A program made the translations under genes and the position numbers. A DNA stretch of 63,967 bases, the filler included, from Blastocystis sp. subtype 4 (taxonomy: Eukaryota), in assembly GCF_000743755.1 (NCBI RefSeq). It is 8 parts of 8 records of this genome, joined end to end, with 100 filler letters (N's around TTAATTAATTAA, not from the genome) between each part and the next. Parts side by side here need not be neighbours in the genome. Positions count along the whole stretch, not along the records: positions 16,954 to 25,295 come from NW_014569171.1; 7 more parts are not named here. The stretch is one strand, 5' to 3'. The notes beneath the pieces were generated by a model. That model was not told the origin of the DNA and made no database searches. It worked only from the letters and a program-made list of their open reading frames with translations. How positions within the stretch are numbered: the stretch's first letter is position 1; each line of letters starts with the position of its first letter. This document shows, one piece after another, positions 18,113 through 25,290 of this stretch.

Positions 18113-18423
18113 TTATTGAGTAGACATACAATCCACTAATGGACTTGTTTCAAATGATATCATCTGTTTTACCAGATTACTGTAGATTCGAATACATTTC
18201 AATCCACTTGATAGATCCACTGGTTCTCTTCCTTTCACACCATTTGCCTGAATCTTATCAAATCCCAATATCGACTCAAATCAGGTGCTTGTTGAAATAC
18301 TAGATCATAAGCAGGACCAGAAGGATGTGCATATCCATCTTCTGTGAATGTGAGATATGAACCAAACATCTCTTCTTCTTGATCATAGTATCCTACTTCA
18401 ACAACGATAATGATAACAAACAT
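18113..18423 (-). pseudogene. decayed minor capsid (penton)-like gene, copy 2, frameshifted
   Basis: FQQAPDL/(frameshift)ILGFDKIQANGVKGREPVDLSSGLKCIRIYSNLVK aligns with copy 1. Confidence 0.5.
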
Positions 18424-18479
18424 AAATTATGTCATCTTCAACACAAATTAGTTAATGCAAATCAGTTAAAGATGATCAC

Positions 18480-19287
18480 TCCTTCTGTCGAATGATGTGA
18501 TCAAACGAATCAGCATCTCAACTGTTATCTTTAATTAATCATACTTGAACTCTGCAGTTCTCTGACACCACTAAATTCCTTATCTCCCAACTTAATCCCA
18601 TCTTCTGTTAGTGATAGAATGTCTAATTCAAATGCAATTCATCAATAATCTCCAATATCACTTTGCTTATTTGTATTAAACTGAAATCACTTCCAATGAA
18701 TACTAGAAGAGAAGGAAGATCTGACCTAACTATACTCTATCATTCCCACTTCTCATTATCAACTCATTTGATTCTCCTTTCTGACAGTCACCAATTACAA
18801 CCAAGATTCCGACACATATAGATTGAAGTTGAATCAGATCTCATTCATCATTCATTCAATCATTCATACTCTCAAAAACAACAGAATGACAACGAACGAA
18901 TGCACCTATATCTAGTTTAATTGATTTGAGAGAAAGGAGATTCTTCACTTCAAATGATTCATACAAACAGAATGAATTGTAACCGATCTGTATTTGTCTC
19001 AACAGACTACAATTCATTATCACACATTTGCTTCCTTCTTCACCGTTCTTCTCAAGTTCAAAACTCTTGTCTCCAATCTTCACGCTCTTCAGCTCATTAA
19101 GTCCATCAATCAAGAATTGAATCATATTCTTAAAACAACCATTTCCAATCTCAAGCATTTCAACTCCTTTCAAACAATTATTATCAAATACACTCAAATC
19201 ACTTCCATATCCATCTTCTAATCGTTTGATTGCACCGGATTCATCATTGCTGCCCACTTTTGACTTGAAATGAACTACTGCTTCCAT
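18480..19287 (-). CDS. leucine-rich-repeat (BspA-like) multicopy family member, possibly pseudogene
   Basis: LEIGNGCF..IDGLNELKSVKIGDKSF..LKSIKLDIGAF repeats; 3' exons and introns similar to those at 23850-25290. Confidence 0.6.
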
Positions 19288-19559
19288 TCTTTTAACATTA
19301 TCTTATCATTTCCCTGTATAGCTACCAAGGGTTGGAGGTCCTTGTTGGTGACGATTTGTTTGCTTCCAGTTTGTACGTGATATATGTCTAAACCTTCCCA
19401 TTTTGCCTTTACTACCACAGTTCGGAGTGTTGTGTGTTCCATCTGTGGATAAGTTCGACCCCTACAAGAGAATAGAATTGCTTTCTGGAGAGATACCATC
19501 GGAGAACACAAGAGTCTCTGCATTCTCTGTATCAGAGTCTACAAGAGACATCCTCGTAG

Positions 19560-20030
19560 CAACGGTGTGTCCTTCATCCAGCTTGCGTTTCTGTAGTGAG
19601 AGGAGTTTGAGAAGTTTCTGAATGGAATGATCATGGAGGTAGTGTCGAAATAATTACCTTTAGCTGTTGGAAGAAGCTGGATTACTTCAACACCTGTGTA
19701 TATCACTAATTCGATTATCAAAGATAAAAGATGACGAAGGTGTTGGACTAGCTACATCGAGTTTCTCATGATATCGATTCCTTGTACAAAGACAAGTTCT
19801 ACAAGCGAGTGGCGATTGCGGCTATTCGCTGTGCAATCCGTTTAGCCCAGAACCCTATCAATGAAGTGGACTACAAGAAACATTTCTCTCTGCTCCATTA
19901 CCACAAAGTTCATAAGAAGGGAGCTGAATACCGTGATGATGAGAATCCCGATAGCTTGAAGCCAATTTATGGCAATGAACCAGAAGAGTATCTGCAAAGC
20001 AGTAGAAGAGTTGTCTTTGTTTGCAGATGA
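19560..20030 (+). pseudogene. fragment resembling the C-terminal part of NatA auxiliary subunit NAA15, with stops and frameshift
   Basis: *FDYQDKR*RRCWTSYIEFLMI/DSLYKDKFYKRVAIAAIRCAIRLAQNP vs NAA15 pattern QFDFH..RK..RSYV..L..D.L....FY.KAA..AI..Y..L..NP. Confidence 0.5.
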
Positions 20031-20338
20031 TGTGGAGTGTTGGAGGTGTAAAAGGGAAGAAAGAAACGGGATTAACCATTGTTGACACTTATGGTGTAGT
20101 TTTCTGAGCATCATCCTCTGTACTCATTTGTGATAGATGAACGCCACACATATGTATCCTTGTCTGGAAAACGCATCCTATTCGAACTAAAGAAATCACC
20201 TCAAACGAATTGACGCTTATTTTCTGAAAGGGTCCTTACGAGTACTTGTTTCAGAGCAATGGAAATCCGGATTTAGTATATCAAGCAATCATCACAAAGA
20301 GTCAATCCAATATATAGAACAAACTAAAAGCAGGAGAA

Positions 20339-20671
20339 TTACTTCCTTATAAATGCAGAATCTGCTGCATTGACGTCATTATCGTCAGACATATATCGTT
20401 CCACTTTCATATGTAAATCATACTTTTCCCGAAGTTCCATGATTCTTGCCATCATTGGGGAAGCGTGGTGGACATCGATCGAGTGTTGGTCTTTCCAGCT
20501 ATCAATAAGAAGGACTGTTTCCGTGTCTTCCATTGGAAAAAAGTATTCATATCGAAGATTTCCGGCTTCACCACGAATATCAGTCACAATTCCACTTGAA
20601 ACCATTTCTTCTGCAAATCTCTTTGCACTTCCATTTGTACCAGTGTAATAGATATTAACTGTAATGACCAT
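20339..20671 (-). CDS. antibiotic biosynthesis monooxygenase (ABM) / putative quinol monooxygenase, bacterial type
   Basis: Intronless 110 aa; IRGEAGNLRYEYF..VLLIDSW..HHASPMM typical of ABM-family proteins. Confidence 0.85.
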   Translation of the reverse strand: MVITVNIYYTGTNGSAKRFAEEMVSSGIVTDIRGEAGNLRYEYFFPMEDTETVLLIDSWKDQHSIDVHHASPMMARIMELREKYDLHMKVERYMSDDNDVNAADSAFIRK

Positions 20672-21269
20672 AAGCTTGTATTCTGTTTATACGCCAATCC
20701 ACTAGAAAGCCCAATAACTACTCCCAATATCCTCAAAACTGTTAAGAGTAGTACAGTGGTTAACACCTAACCACTATTTATGATAATTATAATTATGTTA
20801 CATATTGTGGAGAGTTGTAACTGAATTGAAACACGGAAGTTATGCCAGTTCATATAGTCATTTCAACCGCGATTGTAATCAGTAATAAATGCTTCATTTT
20901 GATTGGTGTTTATTATCTGGTAAGAAACATACAACTAGCTAAACCTTCACATTCACGCTCAACCATATGTTGATGTAGATGTTAGAAGCGATTGAGACTA
21001 CTTCACCACGACGATTCTATTCTGATGATCCACTATGCTAAGGATTCTCTTCAGTTTCTCTGAAGTCTCTTCAATGGTTGTAAGTTTAGTGTATCTGATG
21101 ACCTAAGGCTAATTGAGATTGTTAATAACAAGCAATTCTACCACATCTATTAACGTGATGACATGGAGTTCCTCCAGTAGTGAGGTTATTAGTGTTCTGC
21201 AGAGGTGCCTCACCATATTACCTTAGGTCATTAGCATGCTGGCAACAAATAACCATACGAATTACGGTC

Positions 21270-21545
21270 TGTACAGAAGCATATAGTATTACCTTGGTTA
21301 CTTCTGATCCAACTCATTATTATTCTATTCTTTATAAAATGGCTAGAAGAATTCGTTATCGTAGATATCGACATGCCACAAGGCCCGCTTACACTGTCTC
21401 CCACAAGTACATCCGAAATGGTACATAATCTGTTCGCAGCATTAAAGGCTGGTATACTTCGTCATGCCATCCTCAACCATTCGCTCCTACTTAGTATTCT
21501 GCTACAGTATTCTTACTATTAAGCATCTTTGTGTCCAGCTACAGG
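21270..21545 (+). pseudogene. decayed CRESS-DNA virus capsid copy (ATG 21339) with its own origin hairpin (TAGTATTAC 21284-21292)
   Basis: MARRIRYRRYRHATRPAYTVSHKYIRNGT* then, via frameshifts, IKGWY..ILTIKHLCVQLQ, homologous to the N-terminus of 21870-22529; CAGAAG/CTTCTG stem around the nonamer. Confidence 0.85.
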
Positions 21546-21779
21546 TTTGTTATTTGTAAGTGTTTTCCGAATGTAGTAGATCCTACTGTTATCTCTATTG
21601 AAGGTAGTGATAGCATTGTATTATATATCCATAGCTAACAGAAGTGTTCTTAAGAATATTACCTAACTCAACCATGCTGTAGTTATAAGAGGTGTGACAA
21701 TACAGTCTGCCCAGAAGTACAAAGTATTACCTTATCTCACTTCCGTGCCAACCAATCAAATTCTTGGGATCCCAATGGG

Positions 21780-21858
21780 ATAATGACGGTTTTGGCCACT
21801 GCCCAGAAATCTATAGTATTACCCTTCACTTCTGGGCAATGACCCAAATAGTCATTAT
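21780..21858 (+). promoter_or_regulatory. rolling-circle replication origin stem-loop with nonanucleotide TAGTATTAC (21814-21822)
   Basis: Inner stem TGCCCAGAA/TTCTGGGCA and outer stem ATAATGAC/GTCATTAT around the canonical circovirus/nanovirus nonamer. Confidence 0.9.
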
Positions 21859-21869
21859 TTTTTTATGGA

Positions 21870-22529
21870 ATGGCTCACAAACTCCGCTACCGCCGCTATC
21901 GTCGATCTGGTCCCCGACCTGCCTACACGATCAACCACAAGTATATCCGCAACCTCACCTGGGATGCTCTCGGAGTCGAGGGCTGGTTTGCTGCCTCGGT
22001 TCAGCTGGTTAATAACCCGTCTATTCTTACCTCTAATTCTGCTGGCAATATACTTACTGTTAAGCATATTAAATGCCAACTCCAGAATCTGCCTACCTAC
22101 TTTGGAACCAACTCTACCACTGGGGTCTATAATTTCGGGCAACTAGAAGGTGGATGGATTTGTGTGTATGTTCCTGAGGGAACTAACCCAAACCGCCCTT
22201 TTCCTGACCTGACTACTGGTGCTTCTAGCTTGACCTTGTATGAACCTAATCAGTTTGTACTATATCATGGCACTTGGATGGAAGGTGGTTCTTACTATCA
22301 GACTAATCGTCCTGAACCTATTCTGGAGAACGGTGCTCTTGGCTATAACCGCTACTCAAATACTCCCCCTGGTAACCTCTGCCGTATTACTATCCCTCTC
22401 TCTAAAAGACTCAACCCCGGTGACTCTATCTATATGATCTATTATGCTAAAGGAGATCCCAACCTCATCTCCGGCACCTCTATTGAAGGCTGCGAAACTA
22501 TTGTATCCTACGCGTCTAAAGCTAATTAA
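21870..22529 (+). CDS. cap: CRESS-DNA virus capsid protein (single jelly-roll, Arg-rich N-terminus)
   Basis: Intronless 219 aa; N-terminal RYRRYRR arm; TVKH, VYVPEG, LYEPNQFV, KRLNPGDSIY motifs like capsids of gut-protist-associated CRESS viruses; adjacent origin. Confidence 0.85.
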   Translation: MAHKLRYRRYRRSGPRPAYTINHKYIRNLTWDALGVEGWFAASVQLVNNPSILTSNSAGNILTVKHIKCQLQNLPTYFGTNSTTGVYNFGQLEGGWICVYVPEGTNPNRPFPDLTTGASSLTLYEPNQFVLYHGTWMEGGSYYQTNRPEPILENGALGYNRYSNTPPGNLCRITIPLSKRLNPGDSIYMIYYAKGDPNLISGTSIEGCETIVSYASKAN

Positions 22530-22537
22530 CCTGATTT

Positions 22538-22545
22538 TGTTTGTT
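22538..22545 (+). terminator. host-type polyadenylation element TGTTTGTT downstream of cap
   Basis: Exact motif 8 nt after the cap stop, same as at host gene ends in this window. Confidence 0.7.
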
Positions 22546-23849
22546 TAAAAATACCTAACTCAACCATATACACGATACCATGGAGCCCCTCGGGGCGGTG
22601 TGGGGGTTACCCGGTGCTCCGTAGGAGTGCCGCAATAAGAATACCTAACCTTATCTCACTTCCGTACCATCCAATCAAATTCTTGGGATCCCAATAGGAT
22701 AATGACGGTTTTGGCCACTGTTCAGAAGTCTATAGTATTACCCTAGTAGATATTGGTATTAATATCGTACAAGTTTTAAACAGACATATTATATGACAAG
22801 GCCCATAAGAAATGCAAGATACCCTTCTTTCAACCAGATTATAGTTACTTTTGAAGAATCATCTTCACTATTGCCTGATTTACTCATAGTAATAATGAAT
22901 CTACAATAGGTTGAACCATTTCATTCACACTCAACTGTATGTTGATGTAGATGTCAGCAATTTGCATACGTTCACCAGACAATCACACTCAACAAACTAA
23001 TTGAATGCAATCACTCATACCAAAAACTCATTATACATCCCTATCAAGTATCCAACATTTGCGTTCTTCTTGATAATGAATAGAACTGCTTCTTTTGGTT
23101 CCTGTGTCTAAATCTAGTATTCCATAGAATGAATCTGTCTTATTCATAGTCTTCAGTCCAATTGAATTAGATAGGATGATAACTGGTAGTAGGAATTCAT
23201 CCTATAATGGTAGTATGCGTCTGATGTACTTAACATCACAATTATCAAGTCCTTAATTTGTTATCCAAAGGCCCATGATTCTATTGTAGCCTTTGGTATT
23301 ACTCAATACCATTTCTTTATCTGGATCAACCATCTAAAAGATGGCTTCCAACCCTAAGTAGCTGTACAGGATAGATTTCAAAACTAAACCATCATTTTCA
23401 TAACACTAACATTATTTCGAGACAAACTGAATGGTGATTAAGAACAAAGATTGTCATTCATTCTTGCAGCATTGTTACTGACTTCAGTAAGATGTACTAC
23501 TCAATAATCATTAGGAAAACCAAATGGATCATTCTCTTGGTAGAATCCATATCGATTCATCAATTCTTGTCCAATCGTTCATATTCTACTTTTACCTGCT
23601 TCAAATGTACTCTTTACTAACATCAATCAATTCAATGCCTTCTCCAATACCGATGAATCAATGATGTTTGATAAAGGATATTATACTCTTGCTCACATAA
23701 TTGCTATTTCCAATCAAACGCAATACTCATCATTCTCTCTCTCACCCACTTATCATCCTATTCATCATCACAATTCTCGTTGACACGAACGCTAGCATTA
23801 TAAATAGCATATTCATCATCGGTTACTATTCTTTAACCTTTAATAACTC

Positions 23850-25290
23850 CCAAACCCTTCTGTCGAATGAACTGATCAAGAGAATCAGCATCTCAATCAT
23901 TATCAATCAATCAATCTTACTCGAACAAGTCAATACTTTCACATTGTTGAATGCCTTACATGTCATCTGTATCCCTTGTTCAGTGAGTGATGGAATGTCT
24001 AGTTCAAATTCAATCATCTATCATCACTATCCAATATCACTTTGCCTATCCACAAGAAATTGTAGCCATCTCCTTTGAGTGAAGAAAGAGAAGGAAGATC
24101 TCATCAATCAATCATTATTGTCATTCATACTCTTCATTATCAATTCATTTGATTCAATAACATGATAGTCACCACAAAGAACCCCATATCCAAGAGTGAT
24201 AGATTGAAGTCGATTTAAATCTCATTGATCATTCATTTAATCGTTCATACTCTTAAACACTATTGAATGGCAACTACAGAATGCATCACAACCCATTTCA
24301 AGAGAGATGAGAGTACGAAGATTAGAGAGATTGAATGATTTTTCCCTCATTCCCACTTCTCCTTGAATCACAATCGATTCAACAGAACTAGATATCTCTT
24401 TCATTTGATCGATTCTAGATATCCAGAATGCTGATGGATGAAGAGATAGTAAGTGTTCAGAAGCAATCACATGACTATTCTTTGTAATGTAATATTCAAG
24501 AGAATCAGCATCTCAATCAGTATCAATCAATCAATCATACTTGAACTATCCAACTGCACATTGCAGAATATGCTTCTCAGCTTAATCCCATCTTCAGTGA
24601 GTGATGGAATGTCTAGTTCAAATTCAATATCACTCATTACTATCCAATAACATTTTGCTAATGTAGAGGAAGTTGTTACCATCTCCTTTGAATGAAGATA
24701 GAGAAGGGAGATCTAATCAATCAATCATCATCATCACTCATACTCTTCATTATCAATTCATTTGATTCAACAGTATTCCTATAACCATCTAAAGCCAACA
24801 GTCCAACATCGATAGATTGAAGTTGAGTCAGATCTCATTCATCATTCATTCAATCATTCTTACTCTCAAATACGATCCTATGACATAAGTAGAATGCATA
24901 TTGACCCAATTGAATGGATATCAGAGAACGAAGATTCTTCAATTCAAATGATTCATAACTGTAAAATGATCTGTATCCAATATGGATTTCACTCAGTTGA
25001 TCACAATTCATTATCAAACATTTACTGCCTTCTCGATTAGATTCATCAAGTTCAAAGCTCCTATTACCAATAACCAAACTCTCCAATTCATTCAATCCAT
25101 CAATCACAAATTGATTCACATTCTCAAAACAATCATTTCCAATGTCAATTCGTTTCAATGATATCAATGAATTGTTCAGTATCAATGATGATATATCAGG
25201 AGGATTGAAATGATCAGCAATAATCAGAGATTCAATACAACTAGTAACAATCAATTCACAATCATCAATCCATTTCATTCTCATATCATC
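23850..25290 (-). repeat. two tandem LRR-family gene fragments with shared exon/intron sequence (related to 18480-18880)
   Basis: Recurring blocks AAGAGAATCAGCATCTCAATC, AGTGAGTGATGGAATGTCTAGTTCAAATTCAAT, GATAGATTGAAGT; ORFs 24237-24470 and 24850-25284 end like 18856-19287 (..IVFES.ND). Confidence 0.7.

What the first reader, a model, noticed from the sequence alone, without database searches (positions are those of the whole stretch)
21200..22750. Cluster of origin nonamers with sequence junctions at the TATT^AC nick site: footprint of Rep-catalysed joining
Seen: nonamer-type sites at 21284 (TAGTATTAC), 21654 (GAATATTAC), 21722 (AAGTATTAC), 21814 and 22733, plus a weaker CCATATTAC at 21213. 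Nearly all follow a CAGAAG-type left arm. After the 21654 site the DNA continues ACCTAACTCAACCAT, identical to 22553-22567. After the 21722 site it continues ACCTTATCTCACTTCCG, identical to 22648 onward. At 22733 the element stops at ACCCT without the right hairpin arm. Left arms are therefore repeatedly fused, at the cleavage position, to ACC-starting sequences from elsewhere. Inference: HUH-endonuclease nick-and-join reactions at true and cryptic sites built and inserted this array, like a Helitron/IS91-type mechanism rather than random end joining.
Basis: partly seen in the sequence, partly recalled or inferred. Interest (0 to 1): 0.8.

Follow-up and report, generated by a model that had tools for sequence, protein, structure and literature searches.

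The report
Integrated array of capsid-only DNA circles
A gut protist chromosome carries a head-to-tail array of a 0.9-kb capsid-only circular DNA virus segment; two of its three informative breakpoints sit at the replication nick, likely a relic of rolling-circle replication rather than proof of enzyme-made joins.

Summary

What is there is an endogenous CRESS-DNA element at about 21,004-22,744. It has three parts:
- a decayed 3' fragment (Z);
- a decayed, internally deleted 438-nt unit (A);
- an intact 1.1-mer of a 919-nt unit (B), which encodes only a 219-aa jelly-roll capsid.

Related capsid-only circles of 831-887 nt are in metagenomes. Capsids at least 90% identical to the window's lie on 931-979-nt contigs. 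No Rep gene was found in the window.

The sites at 21213 and 21654 are not junctions. They are colinear, homologous 3'-flank sequence shared by Z, A and B.

One unit switch is real. At 21728|21729, identity at offset 919 jumps from 10/30 to 91/97 exactly at TATT^AC, though 5 nt of ACCTT microhomology blur the crossover point. The array ends 5 nt past the nick, and its left edge lies inside the capsid gene.

So the origin is a breakpoint hot spot, which is already known for these viruses. Rep-catalysed joining at cryptic sites, or a Helitron-like mechanism, is not shown.

The host is likely Blastocystis: its TGTTTGTT poly(A) motif occurs 30 times against 4 expected, and also follows the viral capsid genes.

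The parts
20942..21015 (.). Left copy of a dispersed, high-copy host repeat that abuts the array.
   Evidence: 84% identical to 22914-22957. Summed contig depth is 203 here against about 7.5 in the flanks in run X5, and several contigs diverge at 21005-21015.
21004..21194 (+). Unit Z: a strongly decayed 3' fragment of a capsid gene. The left edge of the array therefore lies inside the gene, not at an origin.
   Evidence: Weak profile match to capsid positions 180-199 at about 21004-21060 (E 0.066 in a 3-sequence search). tblastn gives LHHDDSILMIHYAK against LNPGDSIYMIYYAK. This part is the least certain.
21195..21290 (+). Unit Z 3' intergenic region. It holds the pseudo-site CCATATTAC (21213-21221) and the origin left half up to the nick at 21290^21291.
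   Evidence: Colinear alignment with 21636-21733, sharing CAGArGTG, ATATTACC, CATGCTG, ACrGTCTG and CAGAAG..AGTATTACCTT. Repeat family D2 is 82% identical.
21269..21306 (+). Z/A origin: CAGAAG / CTTCTG 6-bp stem with TAGTATTAC (21284-21292) in the loop. It is decayed.
   Evidence: Folded as DNA: -2.8 kcal/mol, z -0.12, no better than shuffles.
21291..21728 (+). Unit A: a 438-nt nick-to-nick unit carrying a capsid pseudogene with an in-frame stop, frameshifts, and capsid residues about 73-185 deleted.
   Evidence: Profile hits to capsid positions 3-42 (E 2.8e-7) and 57-70 (E 0.0012). tblastn pieces cover residues 14-45, 60-72 and 186-214.
21654..21675 (+). Pseudo-site GAATATTAC followed by ACCTAACTCAACCAT. 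This is native 3' flank of the capsid gene, not a junction.
   Evidence: Colinear with 22547-22567 (D7, 90% ungapped; alignment). No hairpin forms. The CAGAAG at 21639 overlaps the last capsid codon (read from the sequence).
21701..21745 (+). A|B switch: A-type left arm plus AAGTATT, joined at 21728|21729 to B-type sequence ACCTTATCTCACTTCCG.
   Evidence: Ungapped identity at offset 919 is 10 of 30 left of 21729 and 91 of 97 from 21729 on. ACCTT also follows the nick at 21291-21295. No stable hairpin forms.
21729..21825 (+). 5' copy of the 97-nt terminal redundancy of unit B. The 92 nt 21729-21820 run from one nick position to the next.
   Evidence: D1: 94% identical to 22648-22744.
21801..21838 (+). 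Intact origin stem-loop of unit B: GCCCAGAA / TTCTGGGC stem, TAGTATTAC at 21814-21822 in the loop, nick at 21820^21821.
   Evidence: DNA fold -8.8 kcal/mol, z -2.94; 1 of 200 shuffles folds as well.
21821..22739 (+). Unit B: a complete 919-nt nick-to-nick copy of the capsid-only circle.
   Evidence: Repeat spacing is 919. The unit length is close to the 931-948-nt Logan contigs that carry capsids at least 90% identical.
21870..22529 (+). Intact capsid ORF of 219 aa with an arginine-rich N-terminus and a jelly-roll fold.
   Evidence: No Pfam hit. 71 homologues. Model pLDDT 75, pTM 0.72. The best fold matches are CRESS capsids (E 8.8e-9) and geminivirus, nanovirus and circovirus capsids.
22538..22545 (+). 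TGTTTGTT, the Blastocystis-type element downstream of the poly(A) site, 9 nt after the capsid stop codon.
   Evidence: PMC4159000 passages.
22553..22567 (+). ACCTAACTCAACCAT, a conserved 3'-flank block shared with unit A. ACTCAAC is also present in the free circle L007.
22612..22654 (+). GC-rich hairpin followed by a small ATAAG/CTTAT hairpin ('B-up'). The right side of B-up, CTTATCTCAC, resembles the origin right arm of free circle L005. The 97-nt block starts at the position that corresponds to the nick in L005.
   Evidence: Fold -6.9 kcal/mol, z -2.1. The comparison with the L005 hairpin GTGACATAAGG..CCTTATGTCAC is my own reading, not a statistical test.
22648..22744 (+). 3' copy of the 97-nt block. 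It ends in a half-origin (CAGAAGTCTATAGTATT^ACCCT) without a right arm. The virus|host junction is at 22744|22745.
   Evidence: No hairpin forms.
22914..22957 (.). Right copy of the dispersed host repeat, in direct orientation, 170 nt beyond the array.

Best explanation
Window about 21,004-22,744 is an endogenous viral element: a head-to-tail array of two decayed units and one intact 1.1-unit copy of a 919-nt capsid-only CRESS-DNA circle. It was likely captured from rolling-circle replication multimers whose unit switch and 3' end lie at the Rep nick.

**Shown directly**
- The unit structure of the array.
- The capsid identity of the ORF.
- The chromosomal context.
- The existence of related capsid-only circles.
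- The positions of the breakpoints.

**What the six nonamer-type sites are**
- Three unit-boundary origins: 21284, 21722, 21814.
- One terminal half-origin: 22733.
- Two copies of one homologous 3'-flank motif: 21213, 21654.

**Inferred**
- A Rep supplied in trans nicked TATT^AC.
- Failed termination, or a template switch at or near the hairpin, produced multimers and hetero-multimers with ends or switches within 0-5 nt of the nick.
- Host repair (end joining or microhomology) then fixed such a molecule in the chromosome, with its other end at a random place in the capsid gene.
- Units Z and A look older (stop codons, a deletion, a decayed hairpin). Unit B looks recent or constrained.
For: **Element and capsid**
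- Intact 219-aa ORF. The fold model (pLDDT 75) has its best matches among CRESS, geminivirus, nanovirus and circovirus capsids.
- 71 homologues. A profile search finds 288 cluster representatives at E<=0.001 and 53 at E<=1e-10.

**Free circles**
- L005 repeats with a period of 887 nt, L007 with 879 nt (3.35 copies) and L009 with 831 nt. The repeated parts of L005 and L007 are 100% identical. Each unit has one capsid gene. L005 and L007 each have one strong origin hairpin with an 11-nt loop (z -5.4 and -5.8).
- Capsids at least 90% identical to the window's lie on Logan contigs of 931-948 nt and an ENA contig of 979 nt. The exact window protein lies on 245 contigs, the longest 882 kb.

**Chromosomal context**
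- Eukaryotic genes surround the array, and independent contigs bridge every junction.

**Array structure**
- Repeat spacing is 919. D1 is 91 of 97 identical, D2 82%. D5 and D7 are colinear.
- The Z and A intergenic regions align colinearly.
- Unit A matches capsid profile positions 3-42 and 57-70, with a stop codon and a deletion.

**Breakpoints**
- Identity at offset 919 steps from 10 of 30 to 91 of 97 exactly at 21729, and from the block to 7 of 30 after 21825/22744.
- Only the 21801-21838 hairpin is stable (z -2.94).

**Prior knowledge**
- The virion-strand origin is a recombination hot spot through replicational release from concatemers and copy-choice at the hairpin (PMC3187698, section 8.1 and 8.3 passages).
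- Tandem endogenous geminiviral arrays are known (PMC5014472 passages).
Against: - The DNA of the closest free (B-type) circles could not be fetched. That the 92-nt block and the B-up hairpin are native to the free genome rests only on contig lengths (931-948 nt against a 919-nt unit).
- The donor side of the A|B switch ends exactly at TATT, and the acceptor begins at the nick-equivalent position of a degenerate hairpin. A true Rep strand transfer would give the same picture.
- In a simple run-on concatemer the 5' end, not the 3' end, should sit at the nick. Here the 3' end (nick+5) is origin-associated and the 5' edge is inside the capsid gene.
- Unit B sits exactly at the end of an apparently older A-type array. 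That is either a coincidence or needs a single hetero-multimer or a targeted event.
- No circular joint was seen in the four runs laid. Contigs cannot show absence, so this has no weight either way.
- No cognate Rep was identified.
Confidence: 0.55

Rival explanations
1. A cognate HUH Rep itself catalysed the joins by nicking true and cryptic TATT^AC-like sites and ligating the 3'-OH of one to the Rep-linked 5'-AC of another. This would have both built the hetero-array and inserted it.
For: - The A|B switch is at TATT|AC to the base.
- The 92-nt block 21729-21820 runs from one nick position to the next. The Z/A origin differs from the A|B-plus-B origins by exactly that nick-to-nick module.
- The block's start in unit B (22648) is at the position that corresponds to the nick in the L005-type hairpin (my own reading).
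- Rep proteins nick and rejoin DNA (PMC12981564, abstract as listed).
Against: - The 21213 and 21654 sites are colinear homologous sequence without a breakpoint.
- The acceptor loop in unit B reads AATACCTA^AC, which is not nonamer-like.
- ACCTT microhomology makes the crossover point ambiguous over 5 nt.
- The virus|host junction is at nick+5, not at the nick. The host|virus junction is inside the capsid gene.
- No Rep is in the window (0 of 118 ORFs).
- In L006 the two origin modules are swapped with breakpoints away from the nick.
Confidence: 0.25
2. Rep-independent origin fragility or homology. The hairpin or cruciform of double-stranded viral DNA was cut by host nucleases, or incoming B-type DNA recombined with a resident older A-type EVE through the short sequence they share around the nonamer. 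Host end joining or microhomology repair then sealed the ends.
For: - Both origin-associated breakpoints lie inside the hairpin loop rather than strictly at the nick (0-5 nt and +5 nt).
- ACCTT microhomology is present at the A|B switch.
- In run X5 the same locus carries a mosaic tract at 21811-21881 whose left edge is 10 nt before the nick.
- Units Z and A look older than B: stop codons, a deletion and a decayed hairpin, against an intact ORF and 94% identical blocks.
- Sites exposed in viral mini-chromosomes are breakage-prone (PMC3187698, section 8.5 passage).
Against: - The exact coincidence of the left edge of the 97-nt block with TATT^AC is not predicted by loop breakage.
- The B-type partner joins at its upstream degenerate hairpin, where it shares only 5 nt with A-type, rather than at its own nonamer, where the shared run is longer.
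Confidence: 0.15
3. Post-integration history only. One unit integrated, was tandemly duplicated by unequal crossing-over, and the copies then diverged. Gene conversion kept the 97-nt blocks alike.
For: - Tandem arrays can grow by unequal exchange.
- The locus lies between two copies of a dispersed host repeat.
- Mosaic variation exists between strains.
Against: - Units A and B have different intergenic architectures. A lacks the GC-rich hairpin segment.
- Identity changes abruptly (10 of 30 to 91 of 97) exactly at the nick, and the other edge of the block is the array end. Conversion tracts have no reason to stop there.
- Unit B is at least 90% identical in protein to capsids on small contigs, while unit A is a wreck.
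Confidence: 0.05

Closest known systems
Endogenous geminiviral tandem arrays (EGV1 in yam; GRD repeats in Nicotiana)
   Same: CRESS-type ssDNA virus sequence fixed in a eukaryotic chromosome as partial head-to-tail repeats that include the origin hairpin and nonamer (PMC5014472 passages).
   Different: - Those arrays carry Rep and other genes from 2.6-kb genomes in plants.
- This one is a 0.92-kb capsid-only unit without Rep, in a gut protist, with units of two types and one intact ORF.
- That GRD repeats end at the origin is my recollection and was not checked here.
Virion-strand origin as recombination hot spot / replicational release from concatemers (geminiviruses, circoviruses)
   Same: Breakpoints concentrate at the nonamer hairpin because Rep initiates and terminates there and because polymerases switch templates there (PMC3187698, sections 8.1 and 8.3, passages read). 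The A|B switch and the array end fit this.
   Different: Here the product is fossilised in a host chromosome and joins two divergent capsid-only molecules. The acting Rep is unknown.
CRESS-DNA EVEs of Blastocystis and other gut protists (Kinsella et al. 2022, PMC9615429)
   Same: Cressdnavirus-derived sequence integrated in a gut protist genome. That paper reports 38 EVEs in Blastocystis (passages read).
   Different: - Of those 38, 37 were Rep-like and 1 Cap-like, and none was found in the subtype 3 and 4 assemblies examined.
- They were linked to CRESSV1 (pecoviruses), 2.9-kb genomes whose reported nonamer is TTTTATGAG (PMC9447917 passage), not TAGTATTAC.
- I did not see the supplements, so the single Cap-like EVE could not be compared with this one.
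Nanoviridae-type multipartite genomes and ssDNA satellites
   Same: Circles of about 1 kb, each with one gene and an origin hairpin with a TAGTATTAC-type nonamer. Replication would need a Rep encoded elsewhere. The capsid fold is distantly like the FBNSV capsid (rank 6, E 1.7e-3).
   Different: - No Rep segment or shared common region was found (0 matches in viral contigs).
- The host is a protist.
- The capsid has no Pfam family.
- Whether the circle is a genome segment or a capsid-encoding satellite is open.
Helitron / IS91 rolling-circle transposons
   Same: HUH chemistry would nick at a defined site, and one end is defined by a hairpin-associated site.
   Different: No RepHel or transposase, no second copy in the window, units are virus circles with exogenous relatives, and one array end is random.

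Membership tests
CRESS-DNA virus-derived endogenous element | Jelly-roll capsid protein with a basic N-terminus | tested here: met
   MAHKLRYRRYRRSGPRP…. AlphaFold model pLDDT 75, pTM 0.72. 103 BFVD matches at E<=0.001, the top ones named CRESS or circovirus capsids. PDB matches: MSV, FBNSV, AYVV and circovirus capsids.
CRESS-DNA virus-derived endogenous element | Origin hairpin with a NANTATTAC-type nonamer in the loop | tested here: met
   21801-21838 folds at -8.8 kcal/mol, z -2.94, with TAGTATTAC in the loop. The Z/A origin is decayed (z -0.12). The hairpins folded from free relatives L005, L006 and L007 give z -5.4 to -5.8.
CRESS-DNA virus-derived endogenous element | Rep gene (HUH endonuclease plus SF3 helicase) | tested here: not met
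   0 of 118 stop-to-stop ORFs of at least 90 aa in the window hit a Rep or helicase Pfam family. Units of 831-919 nt have no room for one. The element is capsid-only, so Rep must act in trans. Shorter or badly decayed Rep fragments would have been missed.
CRESS-DNA virus-derived endogenous element | Exogenous circular relatives | tested here: met
   L005 and L007 have 100% identical wrap-around or tandem repeats of 887 and 879 nt, and L009 repeats at 831 nt. Capsids at least 90% identical lie on 931-979-nt contigs. Circularity is inferred from terminal redundancy and contig length.
CRESS-DNA virus-derived endogenous element | Host chromosomal flanks on both sides | tested here: met
   Adaptin, hexokinase, 14-3-3 and other eukaryotic genes are in the window. 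L002 spans the array plus flanks. Bridging contigs come from other runs. The longest contig with the exact protein is 882 kb.
Rep nick-and-join junction footprint | Heterologous junctions fall exactly at TATT^AC | tested here: inconclusive
   Three junctions are informative:
- A|B is at the nick but carries 5-nt ACCTT microhomology.
- B|host is at nick+5.
- host|Z is inside the capsid gene.

The 21213 and 21654 sites are not junctions.
Helitron / IS91-type rolling-circle transposon | Element-encoded HUH Rep (RepHel or transposase) | tested here: not met
   No such Pfam hit among 118 ORFs.
Helitron / IS91-type rolling-circle transposon | Dispersed copies with the same termini | tested here: not met
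   No further copy in the 64-kb window. No whole genome is held, so genome-wide copy number is untested.
Nanoviridae-like multipartite virus | Rep-encoding partner circle sharing the origin or common region | tested here: inconclusive
   An exact search for the 23-nt origin core in viral contigs gave 0 matches. The other collections could not be scanned for it.
Blastocystis as host | TGTTTGTT element downstream of poly(A) sites; stop codons completed by polyadenylation | tested here: met
   - 30 matches in the window against 4.25 expected; 0 of 100 shuffles reach 30.
- The motif follows the capsid end once per unit in L005, L006 and L007 and in unit B.
- The motif rule comes from PMC4159000 passages.
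- This is suggestive of the host, not a taxonomic proof.

The most novel reading that the evidence does not exclude
Origin-targeted integration. The Rep serving an infecting B-type circle recognised the origin of an older A-type EVE already in the chromosome, nicked it at TATT^AC, and joined a replicating B-type strand there. Resident viral fossils would then act as landing pads for new integrations, an AAV-like site-specific integration in CRESS-DNA viruses. This would explain why a young, intact unit sits exactly at the nick of a decayed array.
Probability: 0.12. Interest if true: 0.8.

Novelty: new member of a known kind. Interest (0 to 1): 0.5.

Why it matters
The locus gives a clean, independently assembled example of a CRESS-DNA element whose informative breakpoints sit at the replication origin. 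That makes the integration route of these viruses testable in a protist.

Their genes carry the Blastocystis-specific TGTTTGTT 3'-end signal. In 8 of the 35 aligned proteins the capsid lacks a genomic stop codon at the conserved end, which would need polyadenylation to make UAA.

That ties an unassigned gut ssDNA virus group to a very common human and animal gut protist. It also raises the question of which Rep replicates these circles: are they segments of a multipartite virus, or capsid-encoding satellites?

The junction pattern itself is what known rolling-circle biology predicts, so that part is confirmatory rather than surprising.

Tried and rejected
- **Whole genome of the window:** none is held. 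Genome-wide copies and empty sites could not be examined.
- **Viral contigs:** the single protein gave nothing. The alignment gave one 507-nt distant fragment, L001. The 23-nt origin core gave 0 matches.
- **Genome contigs:** only a weak 28-residue match in a bacterial MAG, L010, taken as spurious.
- **L004:** first looked like a 94% allele, but it is identical to the window from 22125 to about 24325 and differs only in the LRR paralogue region. It says nothing about the junction.
- **Read laying on X5, X6, X13, X16:** no circular (go-back) joint. Contigs cannot show absence, so this carries no weight.
- **Protein search with the 55-aa ORF across the unit B intergenic region**, to find free-genome ORFs covering B-up: no candidate.
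- **The search of earlier findings** by place, by sequence and by words: nothing.
- **Protein atlas on the hexokinase ORF** to name the host: uninformative taxa.
- **Pecovirus (CRESSV1) Rep as helper:** set aside, because its reported nonamer TTTTATGAG differs (one passage).
- **The CAGAAG + ATATTAC pseudo-sites as fused half-origins:** rejected, because Z, A and B are colinear there and the CAGAAG at 21639 overlaps the last capsid codon. The low chance expectation of the composite motif (0.15) is still not fully explained.


Full report
**1. Observation**

- TATTAC lies at 21216, 21287, 21657, 21725, 21817 and 22736 on the + strand. There is one more at 22385 inside an ORF.
- The window has 48 such hexamers against 27.15 expected.
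- A composite pattern, CAGAR-N4-16-TATTACC, matches 6 times in 64 kb against 0.15 expected. All 6 are on the + strand between 21200 and 22742. I chose the pattern after seeing the sites.
- 21660-21675 equals 22552-22567.
- 21729-21825 matches 22648-22744 at 91 of 97.
- After …TATTACCCT at 22744 the similarity ends (7 of 30) and no hairpin can form.
- The structure is not an assembly artefact. A 6.9-kb contig from another data set, L002, is 99.9% identical across 18346-25200. Contigs of other runs bridge each junction with 0-1 differences.

**2. What it is**

21870-22529 is an intact 219-aa ORF with an arginine-rich N-terminus.
- It has no Pfam family.
- An AlphaFold model (pLDDT 75) finds CRESS-DNA capsids first in BFVD (E 8.8e-9; 103 matches at E<=0.001). 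In the PDB it finds geminivirus, nanovirus and circovirus capsids.
- It has 71 sequence homologues. A profile finds 288 cluster representatives at E<=0.001.

The contigs that carry the homologues are mostly about 0.9-1.0 kb or about 2 kb. The loci I could fetch show why.
- L005 repeats with a period of 887 nt.
- L007 repeats with a period of 879 nt (3.35 copies).
- L009 repeats with a period of 831 nt.
- The repeated parts of L005 and L007 are 100% identical. Each unit holds one capsid gene and about 220 nt of intergenic DNA.
- L005 and L007 each have a single strong origin hairpin with an 11-nt loop, ACCAGTGTTAC and ACCAGTATTAC (z -5.4 and -5.8).

These are capsid-only circles; circularity is inferred from the wrap-around.

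Capsids at least 90% identical to the window's occur on Logan contigs of 931-948 nt. The exact window protein occurs on 245 contigs, the longest 882 kb. So a close exogenous relative of about the same length as the 919-nt unit very probably exists, and the window holds its integrated form.

None of 118 ORFs of at least 90 aa in the window is Rep-like. The surrounding genes are ordinary eukaryotic ones split by introns.

**3. Anatomy of the array (+ strand)**

- *Unit Z (about 21004-21290).* A very decayed capsid 3' end, with only a weak profile match to positions 180-199. It is followed by an intergenic region that aligns colinearly with that of unit A.
- *Unit A (21291-21728, 438 nt nick to nick).* A capsid pseudogene with a stop codon, frameshifts and a deletion of about residues 73-185.
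- *Unit B.* This is 21729-22744: a 97-nt terminal redundancy plus the complete 919-nt unit, 21821-22739.
- *Hairpins.* Only 21801-21838 is still stable (-8.8 kcal/mol, z -2.94). The Z/A origin is no better than shuffles, and the 21722 and 22733 sites do not fold.

**4. Are the sites junctions?**

*21654 and 21213: no.* Units A and B are colinear from the capsid C-terminus (D5, spacing 885) through this site (D7, spacing 892, 90% ungapped). ACCTAAC starts 27 nt (A) and 32 nt (B) after the conserved GCTAA at the capsid end, with one 5-nt gap in the alignment. B reads AAAAATACC where A reads AATATTACC. Z has the same arrangement as A, so the two sites are one homologous feature. The CAGAAG at 21639 overlaps the last capsid codon and the spacer before a decayed TGTTTGTT-like element. 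ACTCAAC after TGTTTGTT is also present in free circle L007. These two sites are therefore native 3' flank.

*21728|21729: a real switch.* At offset 919 the ungapped identity is 10 of 30 to the left and 91 of 97 from the A of TATT^AC onward. The left side is an A-type origin left arm, 82% identical to the Z/A one (D2). However, ACCTT follows the nick in both partners (21291-21295 and 22648-22652), so the crossover may lie anywhere in 5 nt. In unit B the block starts in the loop of a small ATAAG/CTTAT hairpin whose right side, CTTATCTCAC, resembles the origin right arm of L005, CCTTATGTCAC. By my reading this is a degenerate second origin, and the block starts at its nick-equivalent position.

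*The array ends.* The right end is 5 nt past a nick (ACCCT). The left end lies inside the capsid gene, where similarity to a high-copy host repeat stops at about 21005-21015.

*Tally.* Of three informative junctions, two lie 0-5 nt downstream of a nick and one does not. Chance placement within a 6-nt window of a 919-nt unit is about 0.7% each, so the origin effect is real.

**5. Mechanism**

Origin-centred breakpoints are what rolling-circle biology predicts. The review PMC3187698 (sections 8.1, 8.3 and 8.5, passages read) describes the virion-strand origin as a hot spot through three routes: replicational release from concatemers, copy-choice at the hairpin, and breakage-prone exposed sites.

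My best reading (0.55) is that multimeric and hetero-multimeric replication products, with a switch or an end at or next to the Rep nick, were fixed in the chromosome by host repair.

Four things weigh against it:
- two of its supporting sites are not junctions;
- the B|host junction overshoots the nick;
- the left junction is inside the capsid gene;
- the acceptor loop (AATACCTA^AC) is not nonamer-like.

Rep-independent loop breakage, or microhomology with a resident EVE (0.15), and purely post-integration duplication with gene conversion (0.05) are weaker.

Two further data points argue against strict nick precision.
- In run X5 the same locus has a 70-nt mosaic tract at 21811-21881 whose left edge is 10 nt before the nick.
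- In L006 two 88-89% identical capsid genes carry non-homologous origin modules, with breakpoints away from the nick.

Nothing supports a Helitron/IS91-type transposon.

**6. Host**

TGTTTGTT occurs 30 times in the window against 4.25 expected. According to PMC4159000 (passages), this motif lies 4 nt downstream of about 96% of mapped Blastocystis poly(A) sites.

The motif lies 9 nt after the unit B capsid stop codon, and once per unit right after the capsid end in L005, L006 and L007. In L006 copy 1 the gene reads …GCT AAC T|TATA|TGTTTGTT, with no stop codon at the conserved …AN end. Eight of the 35 aligned proteins show the matching read-through N-x-x-V-C.

So these capsid genes likely use Blastocystis 3'-end processing, and some would depend on polyadenylation to complete UAA. 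The run metadata say mouse gut and wastewater.

**7. Comparison and novelty**

- CRESS EVEs in Blastocystis are known: 37 Rep-like and 1 Cap-like, none in the subtype 3 and 4 assemblies (PMC9615429 passages; supplements not seen).
- Tandem endogenous geminiviral arrays are known (PMC5014472 passages).
- I found no paper on capsid-only circles of Blastocystis in three full-text searches. Another full-text search, on multipartite or segmented CRESS viruses of protists, also listed none.

The junction footprint is a new example of a known behaviour. The capsid-only circle family and its Blastocystis-type gene ends are the fresher result.

**8. Limits**

- The DNA of the closest free circles could not be obtained.
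- No whole genome, empty site or Rep partner was available.
- That the 92-nt block is native to the free genome rests on contig lengths alone.

Noticed in passing
window 22538-22545 and 29 other sites; L005 92-99, L006 374-381 and 1270-1277, L007 202-209: TGTTTGTT, the Blastocystis element downstream of poly(A) sites, is 7-fold enriched in the window (30 against 4.25 expected). It also follows the capsid gene in unit B and in the free circles. In L006 copy 1, and in 8 of 35 aligned capsids (read-through N-x-x-V-C), there is no genomic stop at the conserved end, so UAA would be completed by the poly(A) tail.
   Followed up: partly
window 20942-21015 and 22914-22957: Two direct copies (84%) of a short dispersed host repeat bracket the array, 1972 nt apart. 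Summed contig depth there is about 27 times that of the flanks in run X5. Whether this reflects the target site, a repeat cluster or a larger mobile unit is unexplained.
   Followed up: partly
window 21811-21881 (run X5, coded organism A): In another organism or strain the same locus carries a mosaic tract from the origin loop to capsid codon 4, with 17 substitutions and 15 inserted bases. It is flanked by sequence identical to the window. This could be recombination or conversion with another viral variant.
   Followed up: no
L006 1-1695: This contig holds three successive capsid gene copies (88-89% identical) separated by two intergenic regions with non-homologous origin modules: a TAGTATTAT hairpin at 495-545 and a CAGTATTAC hairpin at 1395-1450. 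It may be a hetero-dimeric circle, an integrated array or an assembly chimera.
   Followed up: partly
L009 1-1655: A distant relative (28% identity): an 831-nt repeat unit that encodes only a 154-aa capsid. The capsid-only architecture therefore extends well beyond the window's clade.
   Followed up: no
window 20342-20671 (-): An intron-less ABM-domain (antibiotic biosynthesis monooxygenase) ORF (Pfam E 2e-10) lies directly left of the array. Its look is bacterial-like, so it is a possible horizontally acquired gene.
   Followed up: no
window 18481-19163, 23856-24323, 24478-25158: Three paralogous leucine-rich-repeat gene fragments (70-77% nucleotide identity) surround the array. L004 diverges from the window only in this family (from 24325 on).
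   Followed up: no
window 22546-22559 and 22636-22649; 21652-21667: TAAAAATACCTAAC and TAAGAATACCTAAC are repeated 90 nt apart in the unit B intergenic region, the second copy in the loop of the B-up hairpin. Unit A has TAAGAATATTACCTAAC at the first position. This may be an iteron-like Rep-binding repeat; it was not tested.
   Followed up: no
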